DNA of 64,000 nt. Origin: a virus. The stretch lies in IMG/VR virus record IMGVR_UViG_3300044638_001843, positions 5,067 to 69,066 of that record. The stretch is one strand, 5' to 3'. A model generated the notes under the pieces. It ran no database searches. It worked only from the letters and a program-made list of their open reading frames with translations, and was not told the origin of the DNA. Positions 3,498 to 64,000 of this stretch are shown here, piece after piece (positions within the stretch are counted from its first letter, which is position 1; every line of letters starts with the position of its first letter). Both the position numbers and the translations under genes were made by a program.

Positions 3498-3673
3498 TGA
3501 GTGAAGTAGAAACAAAGCCAGAACAGGTACGAGCTGTTCCTGTTGATGCTGTAGTTAATTACCTTGCTGACATCTATCGTCAGCTTGATGCAATTAGCTT
3601 CAACATTCGTTCTAATATTAATAACATTGCGCCTAAGCAAGAAGGAGAATCAAGCAATGCCAACGAAGAATAA
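3497..3673 (+). CDS. Hypothetical protein (58 aa)
   Basis: TAATG coupling to upstream gene, GGAG RBS; MSEVETKPEQVRAVPVDAVVNYLADIYRQLD... Confidence 0.6.
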   Translation: MSEVETKPEQVRAVPVDAVVNYLADIYRQLDAISFNIRSNINNIAPKQEGESSNANEE

Positions 3674-4127
3674 GTATGCCAAGCCTTTTGTTACAGGTAA
3701 TGTAACAGTTAAGTGGTCACACCTAATGTCACCAGATGACAAGTTCGGAAATCCAAATCACTCCGTAACTGTTGAGCTTACACCTGAGTTGCAGAAGCAA
3801 CTTCAATCATCTGTTAAGGAACTAGGTGGAAAGAAGATCAATGGCCTAAAGGATGCTGATGGTATCAAGACCATCAAGTTTAAGAATGTCCTCAAGGCAA
3901 AGGAAGGCATCAAGACTTTCCCAGTCATTGGCCCGGATACCAAGCCAACGGAAACCGTACCATTTGGTTCCGATGTAGTCCGTGTCAAGGTAACCCCAGC
4001 CCTGATTGCTCGGGATAATTCTGTTTCGTTCTACATGGAATCAATCCAGTTGATTGAACGAAACTATGCTGGTGCTTCTTCAGAGTTTACCTCTGTTGAA
4101 GAACCTGCTAGTGATATTCCATTCTAA
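3657..4127 (+). CDS. Single-stranded DNA-binding protein (T7 gp2.5-like)
   Basis: AAGGAG RBS; WSHLMSPDDKFG pattern; acidic tail ending EEPASDIPF; syntenic position. Confidence 0.8.
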   Translation: MPTKNKYAKPFVTGNVTVKWSHLMSPDDKFGNPNHSVTVELTPELQKQLQSSVKELGGKKINGLKDADGIKTIKFKNVLKAKEGIKTFPVIGPDTKPTETVPFGSDVVRVKVTPALIARDNSVSFYMESIQLIERNYAGASSEFTSVEEPASDIPF

Positions 4128-43215: not shown

Positions 43216-45968
43216 ACCAGTACAACTTATTAGGTGAGTCCTTTAATCCTAAAGATTTTTCTTCTTTACTTATACCAGTAGTTAAGGATGAAGACAATGA
43301 ATTAGTAAGAGCAGATATGAAAGCATACAACGAATACTCTAATGATATTCAGTTGTACGATTATATTAACTCTTATATAAAAGAGTCTTACATTAAACCA
43401 GTAGATGAAAGTGCAGAAGAAGAAAAGAAGAAGCAAGCAGCTAAAGAGTGGCAATCTTCTTTAGGTAGAGATCCTAGTTCTACAGATCAACTTACAGATG
43501 AAGCTACAGTTAGAAGCAGAGAATTAAATAACATAGGTCCACTTGTATTTAGAGACAACGGTACTGGTAAATTATTATTCGGTCAGCCAGCAAGAGATGA
43601 ACTACAGTGGACGGTATCACAGGGTAGGGATAATGTAGAAGGTATCTTTGGGTTTGAGAACACAGCCCTTGGTCAGGTTGCTTTGCGAATGATGGGTTCT
43701 GAGTTTAATACAGATTCTTTCTATGAAGAATTAAACAAGCTTAACATGTCATTAGATCCAGAAAAAAGAAAGCAAACATTAGAAAGATTAAAGGGAATGG
43801 CAGGGTGGGCTGAGTATGGTGCTCTTGCTAACTGGGTTCAGTTTCTTCCTGGCGTAGATCCAGAGGATCGGTTTAATGCATCGGAAGAAGTATTAAATGT
43901 ATTTGGGTATAAAGGATTTAATGCATTTGGAAGAAACTATTATTCGTCTGATCCATTTGATTTAGCCGCTAACCTTCCATCTAATCCTAACTGGAACTAT
44001 AACAAAGCATGGGAAGCTTTTACTACAACAAACCCAGGCGCAGCAGCCTGGTTTGAAACAAATGGATTTAATGTTCAATCTAGATTAAAGAATACTAGAC
44101 ATGAATTAGATTTCTTTTATGAACTAAATGAATTTATTGATACAAATGCTTTCCAACGTATTATGTCATCAGATGTAGAACAAATGAGTTCTACTGGATA
44201 TGCTTGGAAGACAACAGTATTACCCCTAATTAGAGATTCGTTTGCTTCAGTAGATGCTCCTCTAGATATTGCAGTAACTGTTGGCCTTGGTACTTTAACT
44301 GCTGGTACTAGTACGGCTGCTTTGGTTGGAGCAAGAACAGCATTAATGGCTGGTAAAATTGGATCCACAAGTTTAAAAACATTGAATGCAGTCCAGCGAT
44401 TTAGGAAGGGTGCTGAAATTGTTACTTCTTGGTTACCTCATAATATAGCGGGTAGGTTTGCTAAAAACGCTACATCAATAACTGGTAAAACTGCTAGCTA
44501 TGTCGGAACCAGTGTTGGTAATGGTATTATTACTGGTGCTTGGTATAATATAAATAACCAGTTAAATAATATGGATAATGATGATACATATCGCTGGAGT
44601 ACAGAAAACCTAGCTCACGATATTGCATTAGAAATAGTTGGTGAACTTGGATTGGGTGGTGCAGCCACTATGGCACAGGCTGGTGTCTTTAAGCTAGGTG
44701 GTTTAATAGACAAAGGCACTGGATCTTATATTGGTAAAGCAGCCAAGAAGCAATTTGAAAAGCTTCCAACAGAACTAAAAGAAGTACTAAAAGCTTCTGC
44801 ATCTTTAGGTAGAGTTGGTAACATGGGCGATATGAATAACTATGAATTACAATTATATACTGATTCAGTTGTTATGATGTATGCTATGCGTACTGCTGGT
44901 GTTATTGACCCAAAAAATCCAACCCTAAACTTTAGAACAGCAGCTGCTTGGGGTGTAGCTACTAGTAGACTAAGTGCAGAAAAAGCCAACACCACCTTGA
45001 AAACAGCCAAAGAAGAGTTTGCTAGAAAGAAAAAAGAACTGCAAGATAGTGGGTCTACTGAAGTATTAACAGATGAAGATCAAGATATGTATGTATCTAA
45101 TATGTTATTATCTGCTATGCTTAGTGATTCTAGAGTTAATCCAGATACACAGGAAAGAATCTTTAATCTCTGGAACAGCATTGAACGTGAGCAATTTAAT
45201 CGTGAGTTTAGAAGTACTCCAGAAATTGAAACCAAACAAAAAGAAATATCAGACTTAGAAGATCAAAAACTAGATCTTGTAGAACAACTAGCCAAAAGAT
45301 CAAAAAAGATTTCTCAAGTAGAAAAAGATATTCTTCAAGTAGAAATAGATGATAGGACTGCTAAGATTGCTATTAAAACTTCAGAACTAGAAACATTACA
45401 GAGTTCAGTTAAGACAGTAGAAAACATGTCAGCAGAAGAGTTAGCTACAAAGCTTTACGAATGGCGTAAAGGTAAAAGAGAAAGAGTTAAAACTTTATTG
45501 GGTTTAATCAATCCATCAGCAACTGTAGCTGCAACAACTGAACTACTATCTCCCGAAGAAATGCAACAAGTTGCTACTGACTTAGGTGCTTCAGCTCCAG
45601 AAGTAATACAAGCAATGGCAGAATCTGAAGTAGAGTCCGGCCTTCCCCGTGATCTTGGTGTGGCCACAGCTGGGGCTTTAAGCGTTGCTGCGGCTTCTGT
45701 TAGCCAACCAGCAGCACCAGCAATGGAAGCCGCTCCCGTGGCTGAAGTAGTTCCAGAAGTTGAAGCTGCCCCCGTAACAGAAGCAGCTCCAATAACAGAA
45801 GAAGCTGCTGAAATTGTAACAGCTGAACCTGCTGTAGCACCTTCAACCGAGGTTATAGAAGCTACCCCAGAAGCCGTACTTACTGAGATTATTGGTAGAC
45901 TAAAGAGTATTGATAGAGTATATCTATTCAATAATATATTACAAAAATACAAAGACGTATGTAAATAA
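43212..45968 (+). CDS. Internal virion protein with hydrophobic Gly/Ala segments, coiled coil and EAAP-rich tail
   Basis: 918 aa; IAVTVGLGTLTAGTSTAALVG segment; C-terminal EAAPV-type repeats. Confidence 0.65.
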   Translation: MNQYNLLGESFNPKDFSSLLIPVVKDEDNELVRADMKAYNEYSNDIQLYDYINSYIKESYIKPVDESAEEEKKKQAAKEWQSSLGRDPSSTDQLTDEATVRSRELNNIGPLVFRDNGTGKLLFGQPARDELQWTVSQGRDNVEGIFGFENTALGQVALRMMGSEFNTDSFYEELNKLNMSLDPEKRKQTLERLKGMAGWAEYGALANWVQFLPGVDPEDRFNASEEVLNVFGYKGFNAFGRNYYSSDPFDLAANLPSNPNWNYNKAWEAFTTTNPGAAAWFETNGFNVQSRLKNTRHELDFFYELNEFIDTNAFQRIMSSDVEQMSSTGYAWKTTVLPLIRDSFASVDAPLDIAVTVGLGTLTAGTSTAALVGARTALMAGKIGSTSLKTLNAVQRFRKGAEIVTSWLPHNIAGRFAKNATSITGKTASYVGTSVGNGIITGAWYNINNQLNNMDNDDTYRWSTENLAHDIALEIVGELGLGGAATMAQAGVFKLGGLIDKGTGSYIGKAAKKQFEKLPTELKEVLKASASLGRVGNMGDMNNYELQLYTDSVVMMYAMRTAGVIDPKNPTLNFRTAAAWGVATSRLSAEKANTTLKTAKEEFARKKKELQDSGSTEVLTDEDQDMYVSNMLLSAMLSDSRVNPDTQERIFNLWNSIEREQFNREFRSTPEIETKQKEISDLEDQKLDLVEQLAKRSKKISQVEKDILQVEIDDRTAKIAIKTSELETLQSSVKTVENMSAEELATKLYEWRKGKRERVKTLLGLINPSATVAATTELLSPEEMQQVATDLGASAPEVIQAMAESEVESGLPRDLGVATAGALSVAAASVSQPAAPAMEAAPVAEVVPEVEAAPVTEAAPITEEAAEIVTAEPAVAPSTEVIEATPEAVLTEIIGRLKSIDRVYLFNNILQKYKDVCK

Positions 45969-45979
45969 GGAGAATACAA

Positions 45980-58430: not shown

Positions 58431-58471
58431 GAAATTCCCCCAGGTTAATCCCTGGGGGATTTCTTTATGGG
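58431..58471 (+). promoter_or_regulatory. Hairpin + TTATGGG element, copy 1
   Basis: GAAATTCCCCCAGG-TTAATC-CCTGGGGGATTTC-TTTATGGG. Confidence 0.7.
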
Positions 58472-58913: not shown

Positions 58914-60791
58914 ATGAACATTCCATTCTTGGGTAAGGGTGAGTATACCGTTCACGACCTGGTGACGCTCATCCAGCCGGATGCGGTCCTTGCGGGGATC
59001 GACCCGGCATCGTTCTCAGTTGTTGGCGGCATCATTGGTAAGATGCTGTCAACGGGAGCTTACAAGATGCACTGCGAGGTTGTTCGTGGTGGATCTCAGG
59101 TGTTCAAGGCTTGGACGCTTCGGCGGCAGGCTGAGGACATCCTGAAGCTCATGCCTGAGTGTCGCAGCTGGTCTAGCCACGCAAGTGGCATGGCCGCAAT
59201 GGACAAGGTTACCTGGGTGCGCGATGAGCGCATGTTCAACCTGGCCATTGATGCTGCCTGTCTGCTGGGCAAGAAGCCCTATGAGGTGGTTCACAACGGT
59301 CGTTCAAATACCGTGATTGAACCTGTGTTCCTCATGGAGTACTTGGCTAAGTGGCAGATCGAAAACTTGGCCAAGCTTCCTTCGGGAAGCGAGATCAAGT
59401 TCTGGCACTCGGCAGATCGTCGTGGCGGTCGCTTCTATGCGTACAACCGCGACGGACTGGTTTTGCCTACGATGTACGATGGAGATGTGTGCGCTCTCTA
59501 TCGGCTGGCAGAAGGCAACCCTGTCACCAAGGAAGACATTGAGCTGTGGTCTACCCTGGTCGAGAAGGAGTACGGTGTCACGCGGGAAGAGATGTGCCGC
59601 GTGGCAACTGATCGTGAGTTTGCTCTGGGTTTGTTTTCCAACCCAATCGGCAAGCTGAAGTCAGTTGGAAGTAAAAAGCGGAATGTGCTGCGGTTCATCC
59701 AAAACTGCTACCACATCAGTGACGCTCTTGCATCCGGCGTGTCTCATGGGCATATTGGATATGATGCCCATGCTCAGGGTCCGGTGGCTACCTCCTTGGC
59801 CATCGGTGGGAGCCGTACCTGTCACGATGTGATGATGGGTCGGAAGGTCTACGAAGGCATTACGGAGTGCCTTGGCATCGTTCCGTCGGAGGTTGAGTCG
59901 TTTGTTCGTTCCCGTGAGTGGGCAAAGAATGTTCTCACGGTGACGAACTACACCGGGCGTGTGTTGGGCCAGGTGTTCCTCTACGGGATGGGCGGAGAGC
60001 TGGAGGACGAGGATGGTTCTGTCCTCGCTCCGTTCAACCTTGCAAATGCTGTGATCAAGGTTGACAAGCTCCGCTCTGGTCTGGAGCTGATCAAGGACTG
60101 GCCCCAGTCCAAGATCAAGGAACTGGCAGCATCTGTTTCTGCCATGTCGGTGAACGCGGCCCTTCGCTACGACAGCAAGCTGTTCAAGTTTGGTGACCTG
60201 TGGTTGGCTCACCAGAAGGCGAAGGAGGAGGTGTTCTCATACACCTACGGTGGGATTACGTTCCCTCACTTCAAGATCGCACCCGCGCTCTCATGGTTCC
60301 CGGTTGATGAGGCTACCAAGATGCGGGATCTGCCTCAGATCTCCGTGTCCCTGCCTCATTCGGTGCTGGATCTGTGCAAGAAGAACGGGTGGCCTACGCG
60401 CTTCCAGCCGCGTATGGCTCCGTTCACCAAGGGCTTCACTGATGACAACGGGCCTGTTGTGCCGTGGTCAGACAGCGGAGAACCCAATCGGGTTGATACC
60501 CCGAACGGGTCCTTGGTGGCAGTTACCACTTGTCAGGATGGCAATGTCCTGACTAACACCATCAATGAGATGGGTGGACAGGTGGCGACCACGCGGCACG
60601 ATGCGATCACTGTTCGCATTGGTCCAGCCCTGAGAACGGTGCAGGAAGTGTACACTCGTCATATGTACCGCGAGTGTGTTGGCAACTACCGTCAGGTCCT
60701 TCGGGAAGAGTTGGGCAAGTTGTTCCCCAACATCACTGAGGATGTGTCGGAAGAGCAGTTTGTTCTTGCCGCCAAGAACATCTTCCGCTGA
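58914..60791 (+). CDS. Highly divergent T7-type single-subunit RNA polymerase (625 aa)
   Basis: FWHSADRRGGRFY; motif A IGYDAHAQG; motif B REWAKNVLTVTNYTG (R-x3-K-x7-Y); TCQDGNVL; motif C TRHDAI; canonical order; GAGGA RBS. Confidence 0.72.
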   Translation: MNIPFLGKGEYTVHDLVTLIQPDAVLAGIDPASFSVVGGIIGKMLSTGAYKMHCEVVRGGSQVFKAWTLRRQAEDILKLMPECRSWSSHASGMAAMDKVTWVRDERMFNLAIDAACLLGKKPYEVVHNGRSNTVIEPVFLMEYLAKWQIENLAKLPSGSEIKFWHSADRRGGRFYAYNRDGLVLPTMYDGDVCALYRLAEGNPVTKEDIELWSTLVEKEYGVTREEMCRVATDREFALGLFSNPIGKLKSVGSKKRNVLRFIQNCYHISDALASGVSHGHIGYDAHAQGPVATSLAIGGSRTCHDVMMGRKVYEGITECLGIVPSEVESFVRSREWAKNVLTVTNYTGRVLGQVFLYGMGGELEDEDGSVLAPFNLANAVIKVDKLRSGLELIKDWPQSKIKELAASVSAMSVNAALRYDSKLFKFGDLWLAHQKAKEEVFSYTYGGITFPHFKIAPALSWFPVDEATKMRDLPQISVSLPHSVLDLCKKNGWPTRFQPRMAPFTKGFTDDNGPVVPWSDSGEPNRVDTPNGSLVAVTTCQDGNVLTNTINEMGGQVATTRHDAITVRIGPALRTVQEVYTRHMYRECVGNYRQVLREELGKLFPNITEDVSEEQFVLAAKNIFR

Positions 60792-61288: not shown

Positions 61289-61813
61289 ATGACAACTTCA
61301 CAGTTTGTGCTTGGCTCAGTCGAGTTCGTCCCTACCAAGGGTTCCGCCCCCATGTTCTTCAGCACGGGGGAGCACGCCTATCGGGTGTGGACCAACTCCA
61401 CCAGCTGGCGCGTGGACGTTCGGGGACACCGCACGAAGTTCACCCACCTGGACATCATCCAGATGGGGTTCGGTGTCAAGATCCACCAGGAGATGCAGAC
61501 CCGCTACGGAGCGGATCTGGACGGTTGGGTGTACCTCAGCAATGGGGTTACAATTAGCCGTGACCCTAGCGGGTCTACTCCGCCCTGGGTGGCCGAAGGC
61601 AAGTTGGTGCTTCGGTCGAGGTTCTTTCTGGCTCCGTGCCGGGAACGAAACCTGACTGCCTGCCTGCGAGAATGGGGTCAGACCCCCGCAGAAGCAGAGA
61701 GCTACTGGAACTCGGCTTGGAACAAGCGTGCCGTGGAACTGGAGTACCCGGCTCACCGCATCGTTCCCTCCAAGAACGGGCATCGCATGCCAGAATTCAC
61801 TGTTCTGGTCTGA
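61289..61813 (+). CDS. Early hypothetical protein
   Basis: GGAG RBS; MTTSQFVLGSVEFVP...; bounded by hairpin elements. Confidence 0.65.
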   Translation: MTTSQFVLGSVEFVPTKGSAPMFFSTGEHAYRVWTNSTSWRVDVRGHRTKFTHLDIIQMGFGVKIHQEMQTRYGADLDGWVYLSNGVTISRDPSGSTPPWVAEGKLVLRSRFFLAPCRERNLTACLREWGQTPAEAESYWNSAWNKRAVELEYPAHRIVPSKNGHRMPEFTVLV

Positions 61814-61828
61814 TGCTCCGTTCTCCCT

Positions 61829-61864
61829 ACCCCCTAGGTAATACCTGGGGGGTTTTCTATTTGG
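61829..61864 (+). promoter_or_regulatory. Hairpin element, copy 5 (variant tail)
   Basis: ACCCCCTAGG-TAATA-CCTGGGGGGT-TTTCTATTTGG. Confidence 0.6.
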
Positions 61865-61879
61865 TTATTATTACCCCCT

Positions 61880-62130
61880 GGTAACCTGTACCTACCCATC
61901 CGTACCCTTGAGTACCCCAAGTAGTACCTAGATGTTAACTAGTTCTACAGTAGGGGGCCTACGGTTTGTACCTAGATGGTGGGTAGCCTGAGTACCTGGG
62001 CCTACGCTAAGGGGCCTAGGATGCCCTAGGAAGCCACGGAATACCTAAAAGGCCCTGTGGTAGCCCCAAATCTACCCGGCTTCTAATGGGATTTACCGAA
62101 ATTTACCCATGAACCTGGGTGTACCTGCTT
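61880..62130. repeat. Non-coding tract with dispersed GTACCY and CCTAG/CCTA repeats
   Basis: About seven GTACC(T/C) copies and several CCTA(G) words in about 250 nt with no credible ORF. Confidence 0.55.
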
Positions 62131-62264
62131 TTTTCCCACAAATACCCTAAAGCTCGCGCCACACTTCGTGTGTCGTGGGTGAAAACGCAAGTTTTCGTTG
62201 TCTGGGTTGGCTTTGGTTGTGCTTGTTGCATACCCCTAACCATCCCCAATACAAGGAGGCATCT

Positions 62265-62525
62265 ATGACGGATGCAGAACTGAAGGTCCGACAGGAGGCC
62301 CTGGCTTCCCTCGGAATCACCACCTCCGTGACTGAGCACTTCGCCAAGGCGGAAGCTCGCCAAGCTCGGCGCGAGGCCCTGTCGGAACAGGACAGGCTCA
62401 AGCTCAAGCTCAACGGCTTGGTTGGAGGAGTCATCTTGAATCCCAAGGCTACGGAGGCCACAATCTCCGCAGCTGTGGCCAAGGCGACGGTGATCCAGAA
62501 CCAACTGGCTGAACTGGAACAGTAA
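62265..62525 (+). CDS. Early hypothetical helical protein
   Basis: AAGGAGG RBS; MTDAELKVRQEALASLG... Confidence 0.75.
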   Translation: MTDAELKVRQEALASLGITTSVTEHFAKAEARQARREALSEQDRLKLKLNGLVGGVILNPKATEATISAAVAKATVIQNQLAELEQ

Positions 62526-62569
62526 ATCCAGATCCCCCCACCCCTGGGGAAACCTACGGGTGGCGATTT

Positions 62570-63265
62570 CTAGTACCCCAAACGGGGTATAACGGTGGCT
62601 GCAACCACCATAGAACCGCAAGCAACCTCTCCCAGGCGGTATATAAATAGGGGGACACATAATAACCGCTGGTTTCCTTGCAGGGAATACAGCTATGGAA
62701 AGCCTATGTCACAGGCAAGTACTTACGGTTAAGGTTATTGGCCTAGGTAGAGGATAACCTAGTTAAAACCTCACAAACTTCACGGCGGAGCCGTTGCAAC
62801 GGTGGCCGCAATAGGATACTGGGTAGGCCGCAACCTATCCAGTAAACGCCCCGGCAAGGGTGTAGCAGGAGTTGTCTACCCTGTGGTAATATTATTAGCA
62901 CGATCCGTTTAGACTCGGATCATAGGAATAATGGTAATCCAGGACTTATTCCAACGCAAACGACTGGGTACTCGACTATGCGAGTATAAATAGAAATTAG
63001 GCATAGTGCGGCTACGGTTTTGTTGCGCAACAAACTGTAGCGTCTTGGTTTACTAACAGTCCCACAAAGCTGGGTAGGCTATGTCAGGTAAAGTGAACAG
63101 TCCTGACCGCTTGTTCAAACTGTTACCCTACTATAGTAGGCTGACCCCGATATAAAGCAAATAAGGGGTAGTAATAACCTAGGCTAAGGACCTAACCCAC
63201 CCTGGCTTAGAGCAAGCTAATAGGGTTACTAGGCAGTCTATGGGGAAACCTGTAGACTGTCTTTC
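62570..63265 (+). ncRNA. Candidate large structured non-coding RNA (about 700 nt)
   Basis: No credible + strand ORF; more than a dozen consecutive hairpins, many with G-U pairs and GCAA-containing loops; ends in terminator-like hairpin. Confidence 0.6.
63231..63264 (+). terminator. Terminator-like hairpin closing the structured tract
   Basis: AGGCAGTCTATGGG-GAAA-CCTGTAGACTGTCT-TT; short U tract. Confidence 0.55.
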
Positions 63266-63448
63266 CGGCAGTCAAATAAAGATGTGCATTAAGAAAGGTC
63301 CCCTTTGGAAAACTGGGATGTACTTGCAGACTGGGAAGCCTTAATGGATTCCTATCTATCCGACGAATAATGTTTGTTTACCTAACTGTGTTGCTATCTT
63401 TGCTAGGGATAGCTACACTAATCCATGTACTAGCAGAGGTGATAACTT

Positions 63449-63703
63449 ATGTCAGAAAGTCAAGCCGTAATCCCTAACATTCGTGTTGATGTGTGGAAGG
63501 TTAATTCAGATAATCCTAAGTCGCCCCAACTTAATGGATATGTCACAATTAATGGAACCAGGTATCCTATTTCACTGTGGGCTAATACTTCAGATAACCC
63601 AAAGGCTCCGGCCTTCAAGGGTAAGCTGAGTAAGCCAAGTCCAAAGGAAGTTACCTTTGTTCCTGTGACCCCTGTTTCTGTTCCTGATCCACTCCCGTTC
63701 TGA
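63449..63703 (+). CDS. Small putative ssDNA-binding protein (DUF736-like) with SSB-type tail
   Basis: GAGGT RBS; duplicated W-x3-SDNPK(S/A)P-x3-G unit; ends PDPLPF. Confidence 0.6.
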   Translation: MSESQAVIPNIRVDVWKVNSDNPKSPQLNGYVTINGTRYPISLWANTSDNPKAPAFKGKLSKPSPKEVTFVPVTPVSVPDPLPF

Positions 63704-63713
63704 CGAACTATCC

Positions 63714-63746
63714 GGGTAGCCTAGGTTAATCCCTAGGCTACCTCTT
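63714..63746 (+). promoter_or_regulatory. Hairpin related to the early repeat
   Basis: GGTAGCCTAGG-TTAATC-CCTAGGCTACC; same TTAATC loop as copy 1. Confidence 0.55.
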
Positions 63747-63829
63747 TAACCTAGCATATAGCTAGGGCTTTAAACCTAGGTATTATTATTACTATAGTAT
63801 TAATATTACCTAGGTATACCTAGGAGTAT

Positions 63830-64000
63830 ATGGCAATGTATAATTCGTACACTGAGGTGATCAAAGAAGTAACTAAGGAATTGGGTATCAAGGTTATTGC
63901 CCATACCTATGAAGGAGAGTACCAAATTACCAACTGTTATCTCCTATCAAATGGAGATAAGTATGCCCTTCTTTGGGTATACCAAGGCACTTGTGCCTTG
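63830..64000 (+). CDS. Hypothetical protein (3'-truncated)
   Basis: AGGAG RBS; MAMYNSYTEVIKEVTKELG... open to window end. Confidence 0.6.
   Translation, partial: MAMYNSYTEVIKEVTKELGIKVIAHTYEGEYQITNCYLLSNGDKYALLWVYQGTCAL

What the first reader, a model, noticed from the sequence alone, without database searches (positions are those of the whole stretch)
62570..63265. About 700-nt hairpin-dense tract: candidate novel large phage ncRNA
Seen: back-to-back stems including TACCCC/GGGGTA, GGTGG-CTGCAA-CCACC, TACTGGGTAGG-CCGCAA-CCTATCCAGTA, ACGCCC-CGGCAA-GGGTGT, GATCCG/CGGATC, GGAATAA/TTATTCC, TACTCG/CGAGTA, GCTACGGTTT...AAACTGTAGC and GTCAGG/CCTGAC. The loop TGAACA of the last can pair with downstream TGTTCA (possible pseudoknot). 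Frequent G-T pairs suggest selection on + strand RNA structure, and recurring GCAA loops suggest tertiary contacts. Established: large phage-associated ncRNAs such as GOLLD and ROOL are of similar size. I cannot assign this one to a family.
Basis: partly seen in the sequence, partly recalled or inferred. Interest (0 to 1): 0.8.

Follow-up and report, generated by a model that had tools for sequence, protein, structure and literature searches.

The report
Pistol ribozyme in phage RNA island
This 700-base gene-free stretch of a freshwater phage is not one giant new RNA: it is a chain of folded RNA modules around a known self-cutting "pistol" ribozyme, which should cut free an uncatalogued RNA with two pseudoknots.

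Summary
The hairpins are real. By coordinates, 131 pairs in 21 helices give 122 Watson-Crick, 9 G-U and 0 mismatches. Rfam finds one known family, a pistol self-cleaving ribozyme at 62970-63047 (43.0 bits, gathering 34.5).

Relatives in IMG/VR show a mosaic, not one large RNA. Modules are deleted, replaced, reordered or split by a 636-nt two-ORF insert.

Three modules covary:
- An H-type pseudoknot, "PK-a", at 62615-62655: 77 of 77 cells paired, 6 of 11 pairs doubly changed.
- A three-hairpin block.
- The RNA downstream of the pistol cut, with two pseudoknots and a closing hairpin: 93% paired, 23 of 44 pairs doubly changed in relatives.

PK-a lies beside a pistol in 11 of 12 phage contigs. Contigs from three RNA libraries carry the tract.

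Folding energy is not informative, because a coding control scores the same. Pistol stem P2 is weak here. Cleavage and function are untested.

This scan noted similar pistol-released pseudoknotted RNAs before on other DNA (e1-6032517, e1-5900536). I found none in print.

The parts
62265..62525 (+). Upstream flank: an 86-aa ORF. Its relatives precede the RNA island in related phages.
   Evidence: (2 homologues). No Pfam or PHROG hit.
62538..62573 (+). T1: hairpin CCACCC..GGGTGG with an inner TGGG-GAAA-CCTA top, followed by the tail CGATTTCTAG. It is a terminator-like or end-protecting hairpin of the same style as those after the early genes.
   Evidence: 10 of 10 pairs. The 37-nt motif is nearly identical in L003, L004 and L012. 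The terminator scan did not flag it.
62574..62609 (+). Two small hairpins: TACCCC/GGGGTA, and GGTGG/CCACC with loop CTGCAA.
   Evidence: Present in L004 and not conserved in L003.
62615..62655 (+). PK-a: an H-type pseudoknot. S1 is 62615-62619 with 62636-62640. S2 is 62628-62633 with 62650-62655. Loops AAGCAACC and ATATAAATA are conserved.
   Evidence: 11 pairs, 77 of 77 cells paired, 6 pairs changed on both sides; slid controls 35-57% paired with 0-1 such pairs; copies that keep both stems occur in phage contigs only.
62656..62790 (+). Variable spacer. It is replaced or interrupted in relatives, and the two-ORF insert of L004 sits at its 3' end.
   Evidence: table 5.
62791..62883 (+). Three-hairpin block: palindromic hairpin 62791-62802, hairpin 1 at 62817-62844 (loop CCGCAA), hairpin 2 at 62846-62863 (loop CGGCAA), hairpin 3 at 62866-62883.
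   Evidence: hairpin 1 has 4 of 11 pairs changed on both sides, and 98.7% of cells are paired. Hairpin 2 does not vary, and L004 lacks its 3' arm. Hairpin 3 is CAGG/CCTG here and CAATGG/CCATTG in L003, read by eye.
62902..62952 (+). Two hairpins: GATCCG/CGGATC and GGAATAA/TTATTCC.
   Evidence: Poorly conserved in L003.
62970..63047 (+). Pistol self-cleaving ribozyme. P1 is 62970-62985. The linker ATAAATA follows. The P2 5' strand is 62993-62996. TTAGG is 62997-63001. The pseudoknot strand 63002-63007 pairs with P1 loop 62975-62980. GCG is 63008-63010. P3 is 63011-63041. The junction is G63042-U63043, with the predicted cut between them. The P2 3' strand is 63044-63047.
   Evidence: Rfam RF02679: 43.0 bits against a gathering score of 34.5. 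Rfam's own alignment ends at 63022 and skips the long hairpin. P3 and the cut site are my reading, backed by P3 hairpins of 7 different sequences at this place in relatives. P2 has only 2 of 4 pairs.
63043..63266 (+). Predicted 3' cleavage product, about 224 nt. H_A is 63083-63107. Pseudoknot 1 is 63094-63100 with 63111-63117. There are two extra hairpins. H_B is 63183-63210. Pseudoknot 2 is 63193-63198 with 63223-63228. The closing hairpin T2 is 63232-63261 (GAAA loop) with tail TTTCC.
   Evidence: window. (relatives): 44 pairs, 93.1% paired, 23 pairs changed on both sides. Model R1 matches 63134-63264 at 30.1 bits, E 6e-6. Contig start 1-126 is 99% identical to 63140-63265, while the next 450 nt diverge.
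63305..63370 (+). Downstream flank: a small conserved ORF (LENWDVLADWEALMDSYLSDE), followed by the SSB-like ORF at 63449-63703.
   Evidence: Relatives. PHROG SSB families match only at E 0.05-0.06.

Best explanation
The tract is a + strand, non-coding RNA island of a freshwater T7-like podovirus. It lies between the GC-rich gene block that ends with the 86-aa ORF and the small-ORF/SSB-like genes. It is a string of separable RNA modules: an end hairpin (T1), a phage-specific H-type pseudoknot (PK-a), a three-hairpin block, a pistol self-cleaving ribozyme, and a domain of about 224 nt with two pseudoknots that ends in a second end hairpin (T2).

Proposed mechanism: the region is transcribed from upstream. 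The pistol folds (P1, a 6-bp pseudoknot and P3) and cuts between G63042 and U63043. This leaves an upstream piece with a 2',3'-cyclic phosphate. It also releases the double-pseudoknot RNA with a 5'-OH, closed at its 3' end by T2, as a discrete stable small RNA.

Shown here: the sequence features, the Rfam match, covariation of the helices, the recurrent pistol/PK-a/3'-domain association, and presence in RNA libraries.

Inferred: transcription from upstream, the cleavage itself, stability of the products, and any action in trans. The target of the released RNA is unknown.
For: 1. Pistol match.
- RF02679 scores 43.0 bits against a gathering score of 34.5. It is the only Rfam family in the tract.
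- The P1 loop ACTATG is exactly complementary to CATAGT at 63002-63007.
- In relatives, both sides of this pairing change together: ACTAGA/TCTAGT in L020, L021 and L024, and ACTAGG/CCTAGT in L033.
- The GCG and TTAGG core letters align to conserved Rfam columns.
- P3 is a hairpin of 7 different sequences at the same place.
- Pistols were found in 10 of 15 related loci, scoring up to 60.7 bits.

2. The 3' domain.
- Model R1, built from L019, L015, L018 and L033, finds the L003 type at 64-66 bits and the window at 30.1 bits.
- On A9, with the two pseudoknots added by me (they were not in the model): 93.1% of 304 cells paired, 23 of 44 pairs changed on both sides. Slid controls give 24-42% paired and 0-6 such pairs.
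- Pseudoknot 2: 3 of 5 pairs changed on both sides, 100% paired. Pseudoknot 1: 1 of 7, 98% paired.
- The window carries its own stem sequences and a co-ordinated one-base shortening of both pseudoknot-1 strands.

3. PK-a.
- Covariation as.
- 11 of the 12 phage contigs with PK-a also hold a pistol in the same locus.

4. Strand. There are 9 G-U pairs and 0 mismatches in 131 pairs on the + strand.

5. RNA libraries. Contigs from three RNA libraries of three studies carry the tract:
- X19: 62567-62773, 62770-62865, 62836-62998, 63008-63164.
- X20: 62840-63000 and 63061-63265. The latter contig ends 2 nt past 63265.
- X21: 62794-62962 and 63064-63236.

6. Literature. Pistols often lie near phage genes and their biological role is open (PMC4604425 and PMC6765202, passages read).
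Against: - Pistol stem P2 is weak. Only 2 of 4 canonical pairs form in the window, and 2 pairs are flagged in L019. Only L024 has a full P2. Published work says P2 is one of three stems, and that the 2-nt junction is strictly kept (PMC4604425).
- Rfam's own alignment of the window puts the junction at 63017-63018, inside the hairpin arm. The cut site 63042/63043 is my reading.
- One RNA-library contig (X19, 63008-63164) runs across the predicted cut, so uncut RNA or DNA is present.
- The contigs give no strand and no ends. RNA libraries can contain DNA.
- The terminator scan did not flag T1 or T2, because their T-runs are short.
- Covariation rests on few lineages, about 3-5. Cells count sequences, not events. 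A9 was fitted to the model's nested helices.
- Model R1 aligned only the H_B-to-T2 half of the window (63134-63264). H_A and pseudoknot 1 in the window are my manual assignment.
- Folding energy is no better than in a coding control. The 3' product alone gives z = -2.40, with 4 of 200 shuffles as good.
- Function in trans is pure inference.
Confidence: 0.55

Rival explanations
1. Cis-only punctuation. The modules exist only to cut, end and protect a long early transcript at an operon boundary, like the RNase III sites between T7 early genes. The folded pieces are by-products with no role of their own.
For: - Hairpin-plus-TTTCT elements follow each gene of the GC-rich block at 58436, 60806, 61194 and 61829. 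T1 and T2 are of the same style.
- In L018 and L033 the pistol starts within about 50 nt, or 0 nt, of a stop codon. In L017 it precedes a small ORF.
- The modules are dispensable and shuffled.
- Reviews propose processing of polycistronic transcripts as a role for bacterial ribozymes (PMC6765202, passage).
Against: - The 3' domain keeps two pseudoknots and conserved loop sequences across lineages that share little else. That is more than an end-protecting hairpin needs.
- Contig positions 1-126 are 99% identical to 63140-63265, while the adjacent coding DNA diverges.
Confidence: 0.2
2. A 5' leader or attenuator. The double-pseudoknot domain plus T2 acts as a ligand- or protein-sensing switch that controls read-through into the small-ORF/SSB-like genes.
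For: - The domain ends in a terminator-like hairpin directly upstream of co-oriented genes in the window, L003, L004, L013 and L016.
- Pseudoknots with conserved loops are typical of riboswitch aptamers (general knowledge).
Against: - In L015, L019 and L033 the same domain is followed by more non-coding RNA modules (PK-a and others), not by those genes.
- The 3' strand of pseudoknot 2 does not overlap the T2 stem, so no alternative pairing is evident.
- No Rfam riboswitch matched.
Confidence: 0.1
3. One large (about 700 nt) ornate ncRNA of the GOLLD/ROOL kind.
For: - The size and the density of hairpins fit.
- GNRA-type loops recur.
- RNA-library contigs tile 62567-63265.
- The same inter-gene position holds 0.7-1 kb of non-coding sequence in relatives.
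Against: - A two-ORF insert splits it in L004. Modules are deleted (L016, L004 hairpin 2), replaced (variant) and reordered (PK-a upstream in 4 contigs, downstream in 7).
- The long-range pairs of the minimum-free-energy fold span the insert site and the replaced segments.
- The embedded ribozyme would cut the RNA in two.
- No Rfam large-RNA family matched.
Confidence: 0.08
4. DNA-level signals, such as a replication origin, genome end or packaging site, or hairpin promoters for a virion RNA polymerase, rather than RNA.
For: - The assembly breaks here: contig 1-800 is a diverged copy of 63140-64000.
- Earlier notes suggest N4-like polymerases in this phage (e1-6171872, e1-6171873, unchecked).
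- Some stems are perfect palindromes, for example 62791-62802.
Against: - 9 G-U pairs would be A-C mismatches on the other strand.
- Two interleaved pseudoknots covary.
- A bona fide ribozyme motif is present on the + strand.
- The PK-a 14-mer has no other close copy in the window: 1 site at 2 mismatches and 6 at 3. The 20-mer has none at 3 mismatches or fewer. So it is not a repeated promoter.
- The end overlap looks like strain mixing in a circularly permuted assembly.
Confidence: 0.05

Closest known systems
Pistol self-cleaving ribozyme (Rfam RF02679; Harris et al. 2015, PMC4604425; review PMC6154101)
   Same: - P1 hairpin.
- A 6-bp pseudoknot between the P1 loop and the strand before P3.
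- The ATAAATA linker, a purine plus G before the pseudoknot strand, and GCG after it.
- A P3 hairpin, then a 2-nt GU junction.
- A score above Rfam's gathering threshold.
- A phage context.
   Different: - P2 is reduced to 2 of 4 pairs here, and to about 1 pair in the L019 lineage.
- P3 is long (31 nt), and Rfam's alignment skips it.
- It is embedded in a larger conserved RNA context.
- Activity is untested.
GOLLD and ROOL large ornate RNAs (PMC5737381, passages read; PMC12286853, search listing only)
   Same: Phage-associated, several hundred nucleotides of non-coding structured sequence. Some relatives lie near tRNA genes (L032, L017).
   Different: No Rfam match. There is no conserved global architecture: the modules are separable and reordered. 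It contains a self-cleaving ribozyme.
Theta (HDV-like) ribozymes next to phage tRNAs (PMC10879173, search listing and abstract start only)
   Same: A small self-cleaving ribozyme in a phage, placed directly beside a structured RNA whose end it would define.
   Different: A different ribozyme class. Here the ribozyme lies 5' of the released RNA, and that RNA is not a tRNA (ARAGORN finds none in the tract).
RNase III processing hairpins between T7 early genes
   Same: Structured inter-gene RNA elements that punctuate an early polycistronic transcript of a T7-like phage.
   Different: Here the cut would be made by the RNA itself. The neighbouring elements are pseudoknots with conserved loops, not simple long hairpins.
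H-type pseudoknot aptamers such as preQ1-I and SAM-II (recalled)
   Same: PK-a has two interleaved short stems and an A/U-rich third loop that could lie in the groove of stem 1.
   Different: Loop 1 is long (8-9 nt) and conserved. No Rfam riboswitch matched. It is not placed before a gene in the window.

Membership tests
Pistol ribozyme (RF02679) | Score at or above Rfam's gathering threshold | tested here: met
   43.0 bits against 34.5, E 2e-06 on the tract alone.
Pistol ribozyme (RF02679) | P1 hairpin, and a 6-bp pseudoknot between its loop and the P2-P3 joining strand | tested here: met
   P1 has 5 of 5 pairs and the pseudoknot 6 of 6. Both change in a compensatory way in L020, L021, L024 and L033.
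Pistol ribozyme (RF02679) | Highly conserved core nucleotides: the linker, the purine-32/G33 equivalents, and the G40-C41-G42 equivalents | tested here: met
   Upper-case consensus columns ATAAA.A, TTA.G and GCG are matched in the cmscan alignment. The mapping to env25 numbering follows review passages (PMC6154101) and my own counting.
Pistol ribozyme (RF02679) | P3 hairpin followed by a junction of exactly 2 nt (usually GU) that holds the cut site | tested here: met
   P3 is 63011-63041 with 13 pairs, then G63042-U63043. Relatives have P3 hairpins of 7 different sequences, followed by GU or, in the L003 type, GA. Rfam's own alignment of the window chose a different GU at 63017-63018.
Pistol ribozyme (RF02679) | P2 helix formed by the strand after the linker and the strand after the junction | tested here: not met
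   GAAA against CTTG gives 2 of 4 pairs. L019 has 2 flagged pairs. L024 has 4 of 4. An alternative 8-bp pairing, 62994-63001 with 63044-63051, would bury core nucleotides (read by eye).
Pistol ribozyme (RF02679) | Mg2+-dependent self-cleavage giving 2',3'-cyclic phosphate and 5'-OH ends | not testable with these tools
   Only contigs were available and none shows ends. One RNA-library contig spans the site.
GOLLD / ROOL / other catalogued large ncRNAs | Match to the family covariance model | tested here: not met
   No match at E up to 10 on the tract, on 61700-64000, or at gathering threshold on the window.
Intrinsic (factor-independent) terminator, for T1 and T2 | GC-rich hairpin followed by a run of U | tested here: inconclusive
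   The hairpins are present. The tails CGATTTCTAG and TTTCC fall short of the scan's 5-T rule, so neither was flagged. Equivalent hairpins in L003, L018 and L019 are followed by TTTT to TTTTTT.

The most novel reading that the evidence does not exclude
The island holds two RNA families that are not in Rfam 15 and are physically coupled to a pistol ribozyme.

(a) The double-pseudoknot RNA is matured by the ribozyme and acts in trans during early infection. It could, for instance, be a decoy or cofactor for a host or phage RNA-binding protein or polymerase. That would give pistol ribozymes their first defined biological job.

(b) PK-a is about 41 nt, with covarying stems and invariant loops. It is found only in phage contigs and is almost always near a pistol. 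It could itself be a new small catalytic or ligand-binding RNA.
Probability: 0.25. Interest if true: 0.8.

Novelty: new variant of a known kind. Interest (0 to 1): 0.6.

Why it matters
Pistol ribozymes were found by bioinformatics in 2015. According to the reviews read here, they still have no established biological role.

In this phage group, a pistol sits at a fixed place in front of a conserved RNA with two pseudoknots and next to a second conserved pseudoknot. That turns the open question "what are phage ribozymes for?" into concrete experiments:
- Does the cut at 63042/63043 make the 5' end of a stable small RNA?
- What does that RNA bind?

The finding also adds two candidate RNA families (PK-a and the 3' domain) to an under-explored group of freshwater T7-like phages. 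It is a caution, too: dense hairpins and a strong folding z-score alone do not mark an RNA gene in this genome.

Tried and rejected
**Folding energy.** Rejected as evidence. The tract gives z = -4.70 and -4.66 on its two strands. A coding control gives -4.56.

**Known large RNAs, riboswitches and other ribozymes.** No Rfam match apart from pistol.

**tRNA or tmRNA.** None in the tract.

**Coding.** The longest + strand ORF is 45 aa. Indels between relatives are not multiples of three. L004 does restore that ORF's frame by a +2 and a +1 indel, which I take as chance.

**PK-a as a repeated phage promoter.** Rejected. The 20-mer has no other copy at 3 mismatches or fewer. The 14-mer has one site at 2 mismatches, at 45957. 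Its stems covary.

**PK-a in cellular genomes.** The pattern gave 31 hits in genome contigs, below my rough chance expectation of about 100. Only 1 of the 31 (L051) keeps both stems. I read these as chance.

**L006.** Found with an 18-mer; it is a chance match inside a gene.

**Closest phage records.** No blastn or tblastn match in the phage collection.

**86-aa ORF in metagenome contigs.** Nothing found. The second scan gave only short contigs, and L012 holds a partial tract.

**The look-up of encoding contigs.** Closed, so P0001 and P0002 could not be placed.

**MAFFT alignment of the pseudoknot-1 region.** It misaligned the stems. It was replaced by a manual check and a model-based alignment.

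**A long-range P2 between 62993-62996 and the T2 tail.** Considered and dropped. A U-rich tail pairs trivially with a purine run, and the pairing would break the 2-nt junction rule.

**GAAA-tetraloop receptor motifs.** Looked for by eye; none is exact.

**Parts without cover in RNA libraries.** In X19, X20 and X21, no contig covered 61800-62170 or 63280-64000. I mention it only here.

**RNA contigs stopping at one place.** X19 and X20 contigs stop at 62998 and 63000. This coincides with the edge of the pistol core shared by many phages plus a 31-letter word, so I read it as assembly-graph branching, not an RNA end.

**Papers not seen.** Weinberg et al. 2015 is not held. Supplements of the 2015 and 2017 motif papers were not seen and may list these motifs as uncharacterised candidates.

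**"Not in print".** This rests on the searches only.
Full report
**Setting.**
- The window is bases 5067-69066 of a 69,066-base IMG/VR virus record.
- Pfam identifies a T7-like podovirus: T7-type RNA polymerase, primase-helicase, family A DNA polymerase, class II ribonucleotide reductase, portal, nozzle, T7 tail-fibre N-domain and T7 terminase. All genes are on the + strand.
- The stretch is held by lake and freshwater metagenomes.
- The finding lies at the 3' edge of a GC-rich block: 0.48-0.56 GC at 58-63 kb against 0.33-0.44 elsewhere.
- It sits between an 86-aa ORF (62265-62525) on one side and a small ORF (63305-63370) plus an SSB-like ORF (63449-63703) on the other.
- The contig's first 800 bases are a diverged copy of 63140-64000. 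Positions 1-126 are 99% identical to 63140-63265. I read this as a circularly permuted assembly of mixed strains.

**The observation.**
Checked by coordinates, 21 helices with 131 pairs give 122 Watson-Crick, 9 G-U and no mismatch.
- The tract has no + strand ORF above 45 aa.
- RNAfold gives z = -4.70 (+) and -4.66 (-). A coding stretch of the same block gives -4.56.

**What is known in it.**
- Rfam finds one family, the pistol ribozyme (RF02679), at 43.0 bits against a gathering score of 34.5. It is found on the whole window, on 61700-64000 and on the tract alone.
- The P1 loop (62975-62980) is perfectly complementary to 63002-63007, which is the class-defining pseudoknot.
- GCG follows. Then comes the 2-nt junction G63042-U63043, where pistols cut (PMC4604425 and PMC6154101, passages read).
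- Rfam's own alignment skipped the long hairpin and ended at 63022. My placement of P3 rests on relatives, where a hairpin of 7 different sequences always follows GCG and is followed by GU or, in the L003 type, GA.
- P2 is the weak point. It has 2 of 4 pairs here and is largely unpaired in the L019 lineage. It is complete only in L024.

**Relatives.**
- Protein- and pattern-based scans found the same inter-gene region in IMG/VR contigs. L004 is 99% identical in the 625-aa neighbour protein, and L003 is 62% identical. L012 is partial.
- A pistol-core pattern found eight contigs: those of L003 and L004, plus L013 and L015-L019.
- A PK-a pattern gave 19 stretches. Of these, 16 have distinct cores.
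- Rfam at gathering threshold found pistols in 10 of 15 such loci. L020, L021, L024 and L033, which had been fetched only through the PK-a pattern, are among them.

**Not one RNA.**
- L004 has a 636-nt insert with two small ORFs at about 62773-62790 and lacks the 3' arm of hairpin 62846-62863.
- L016 lacks PK-a exactly.
- A 5.6-kb variant contig, probably DNA, replaces 62569-62743 and 63062-63159.
- L003 shares only patches with the window.
- PK-a lies 355-991 nt upstream of the pistol in 4 contigs (the window's own, L004, L003, L013). It lies 237-507 nt downstream in 7 contigs (L015, L018, L019, L020, L021, L024, L033).

**Modules with covariation.**

*PK-a (62615-62655).*
- Two interleaved stems. 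All 77 cells are paired, and 6 of 11 pairs are changed on both sides. Slid controls give 35-57% paired with 0-1 such pairs.
- Copies that keep both stems occur in 12 phage contigs, 11 of which also hold a pistol. Of 31 pattern hits in 185,579 species genomes, only one keeps both stems, which is chance level.

*Three-hairpin block.*
- Hairpin 1 has 4 of 11 pairs changed on both sides.

*The domain after the pistol cut.*
- I built a covariance model from four relatives. It finds the L003 lineage at 64-66 bits and the window's 63134-63264 at 30.1 bits.
- I added the two pseudoknots, which the model did not contain. With them, 93.1% of 304 cells pair, and 23 of 44 pairs change on both sides. Slid controls give 24-42% paired and 0-6 such pairs.
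- Pseudoknot 2 changes from AACCC/GGGTT to AGGTC/GACCT. Pseudoknot 1 changes from ATGAAAC/GTTTCAT to TTGAAAC/GTTTCAA.
- The window has its own H_A stem, TGAACAG/TTGTTCA with one base fewer on both strands, and TAACCC/GGGTTA.

*Caveats.* The lineages are few, cells count sequences and not events, and A9 leans towards the model's nested helices.

**RNA evidence.**
- Only assembled contigs could be laid. Three RNA libraries from three studies carry pieces covering 62567-63265. One contig ends 2 nt after 63265, and one spans the predicted cut.
- Strand, ends and levels cannot be read from contigs, and DNA carry-over cannot be excluded.
- A 1,848-nt contig at depth 201 carries PK-a in another phage's context.

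**Mechanism proposed.**
- Transcription enters from the GC-rich gene block, whose genes are each followed by a hairpin plus TTTCT.
- The pistol cuts at 63042/63043.
- The downstream double-pseudoknot RNA of about 224 nt, closed by T2, is released with a 5'-OH. The upstream piece, which holds PK-a and the three-hairpin block, ends in a cyclic phosphate.
- I put 0.55 on this ribozyme-matured small RNA reading, 0.2 on purely cis punctuation, 0.1 on a leader or attenuator, 0.08 on one large RNA and 0.05 on DNA-level signals.

**Novelty.**
- The pistol itself is a known family.
- The PK-a motif, the double-pseudoknot domain and their coupling to a pistol match nothing in Rfam 15. I found no paper describing them.
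- The reviews read state that the biological role of such ribozymes is open (PMC6765202).
- Weinberg 2015 and all supplements were not available to me.
- Earlier AI notes of this scan describe like arrangements on other genomes (e1-6032517, e1-5900536, e1-5993037, e1-5778435). They agree with my reading but are not independent evidence.

Noticed in passing
window 63140-64000 and L002 1-800: The start of the contig is a diverged copy of its end. It is 99% identical over 126 nt, then diverges across the small ORF and the SSB-like gene, then is near-identical again. This probably reflects strain mixing in a circularly permuted assembly, not true terminal repeats.
   Followed up: partly
L004 9482-10116: A 636-nt insert inside the RNA island carries two small ORFs: a 59-aa hydrophobic protein and a 110-aa protein of unknown function.
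   Followed up: no
window 58914-60791: The 625-aa ORF has no Pfam, PHROG or PDB sequence match. By eye it carries T7-RNAP-like motifs (K..Y.G and RHDA). Relatives at 62-99% identity occur in a few lake contigs only.
   Followed up: partly
window 61830-62130: A non-coding stretch rich in short TACC/GTACC-type repeats lies between the 188-aa and 86-aa ORFs. It could be a protein-binding array.
   Followed up: no
window 58436, 60806, 61194, 61829: Four GC-rich hairpins, each followed by TTTCT(T)TATG, sit after the genes of the GC-rich block. T1 and T2 of the tract resemble them.
   Followed up: partly
L018 about 3644-3689; L020 about 625-661; L021, L024 equivalents: A second pseudoknot type (CCGCC .. 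GGCGG-TATATAAATA ..) has a variable, covarying second stem: GAGA/TCTC, AAGG/CCTT, ATAG/CTAT. It sits 25-40 nt upstream of pistol P1 in relatives and is not present in the window. It was seen by eye only.
   Followed up: no
L022, L025, L026, L027: A PK-a-like variant with a shifted first stem (ATCC/GGAT) and second stem GCTGG/CTAGC. No pistol was found in these loci.
   Followed up: no
L017 (oriented 277-980): Here the pistol is followed by a small hydrophobic ORF instead of the double-pseudoknot domain. A tRNA T-arm-like sequence and five tRNA genes lie further on.
   Followed up: no
L032 1695-1853 (- strand): A partial 3'-domain match (31 bits) directly precedes PK-a, and three tRNA genes follow on the same strand. 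No pistol lies within the 2.5 kb held.
   Followed up: no
window 63715-63830: A palindrome-rich, AT-rich segment (CCTAGG repeats) is almost identical in the window, the contig start, L004 and L003, while the neighbouring genes diverge. It may be a promoter or operator region.
   Followed up: no
window 45957-45970: The best other match to the PK-a loop-3 14-mer (2 mismatches) lies 10-23 nt upstream of the start of the 4035-aa ORF. It may be chance in AT-rich DNA.
   Followed up: no
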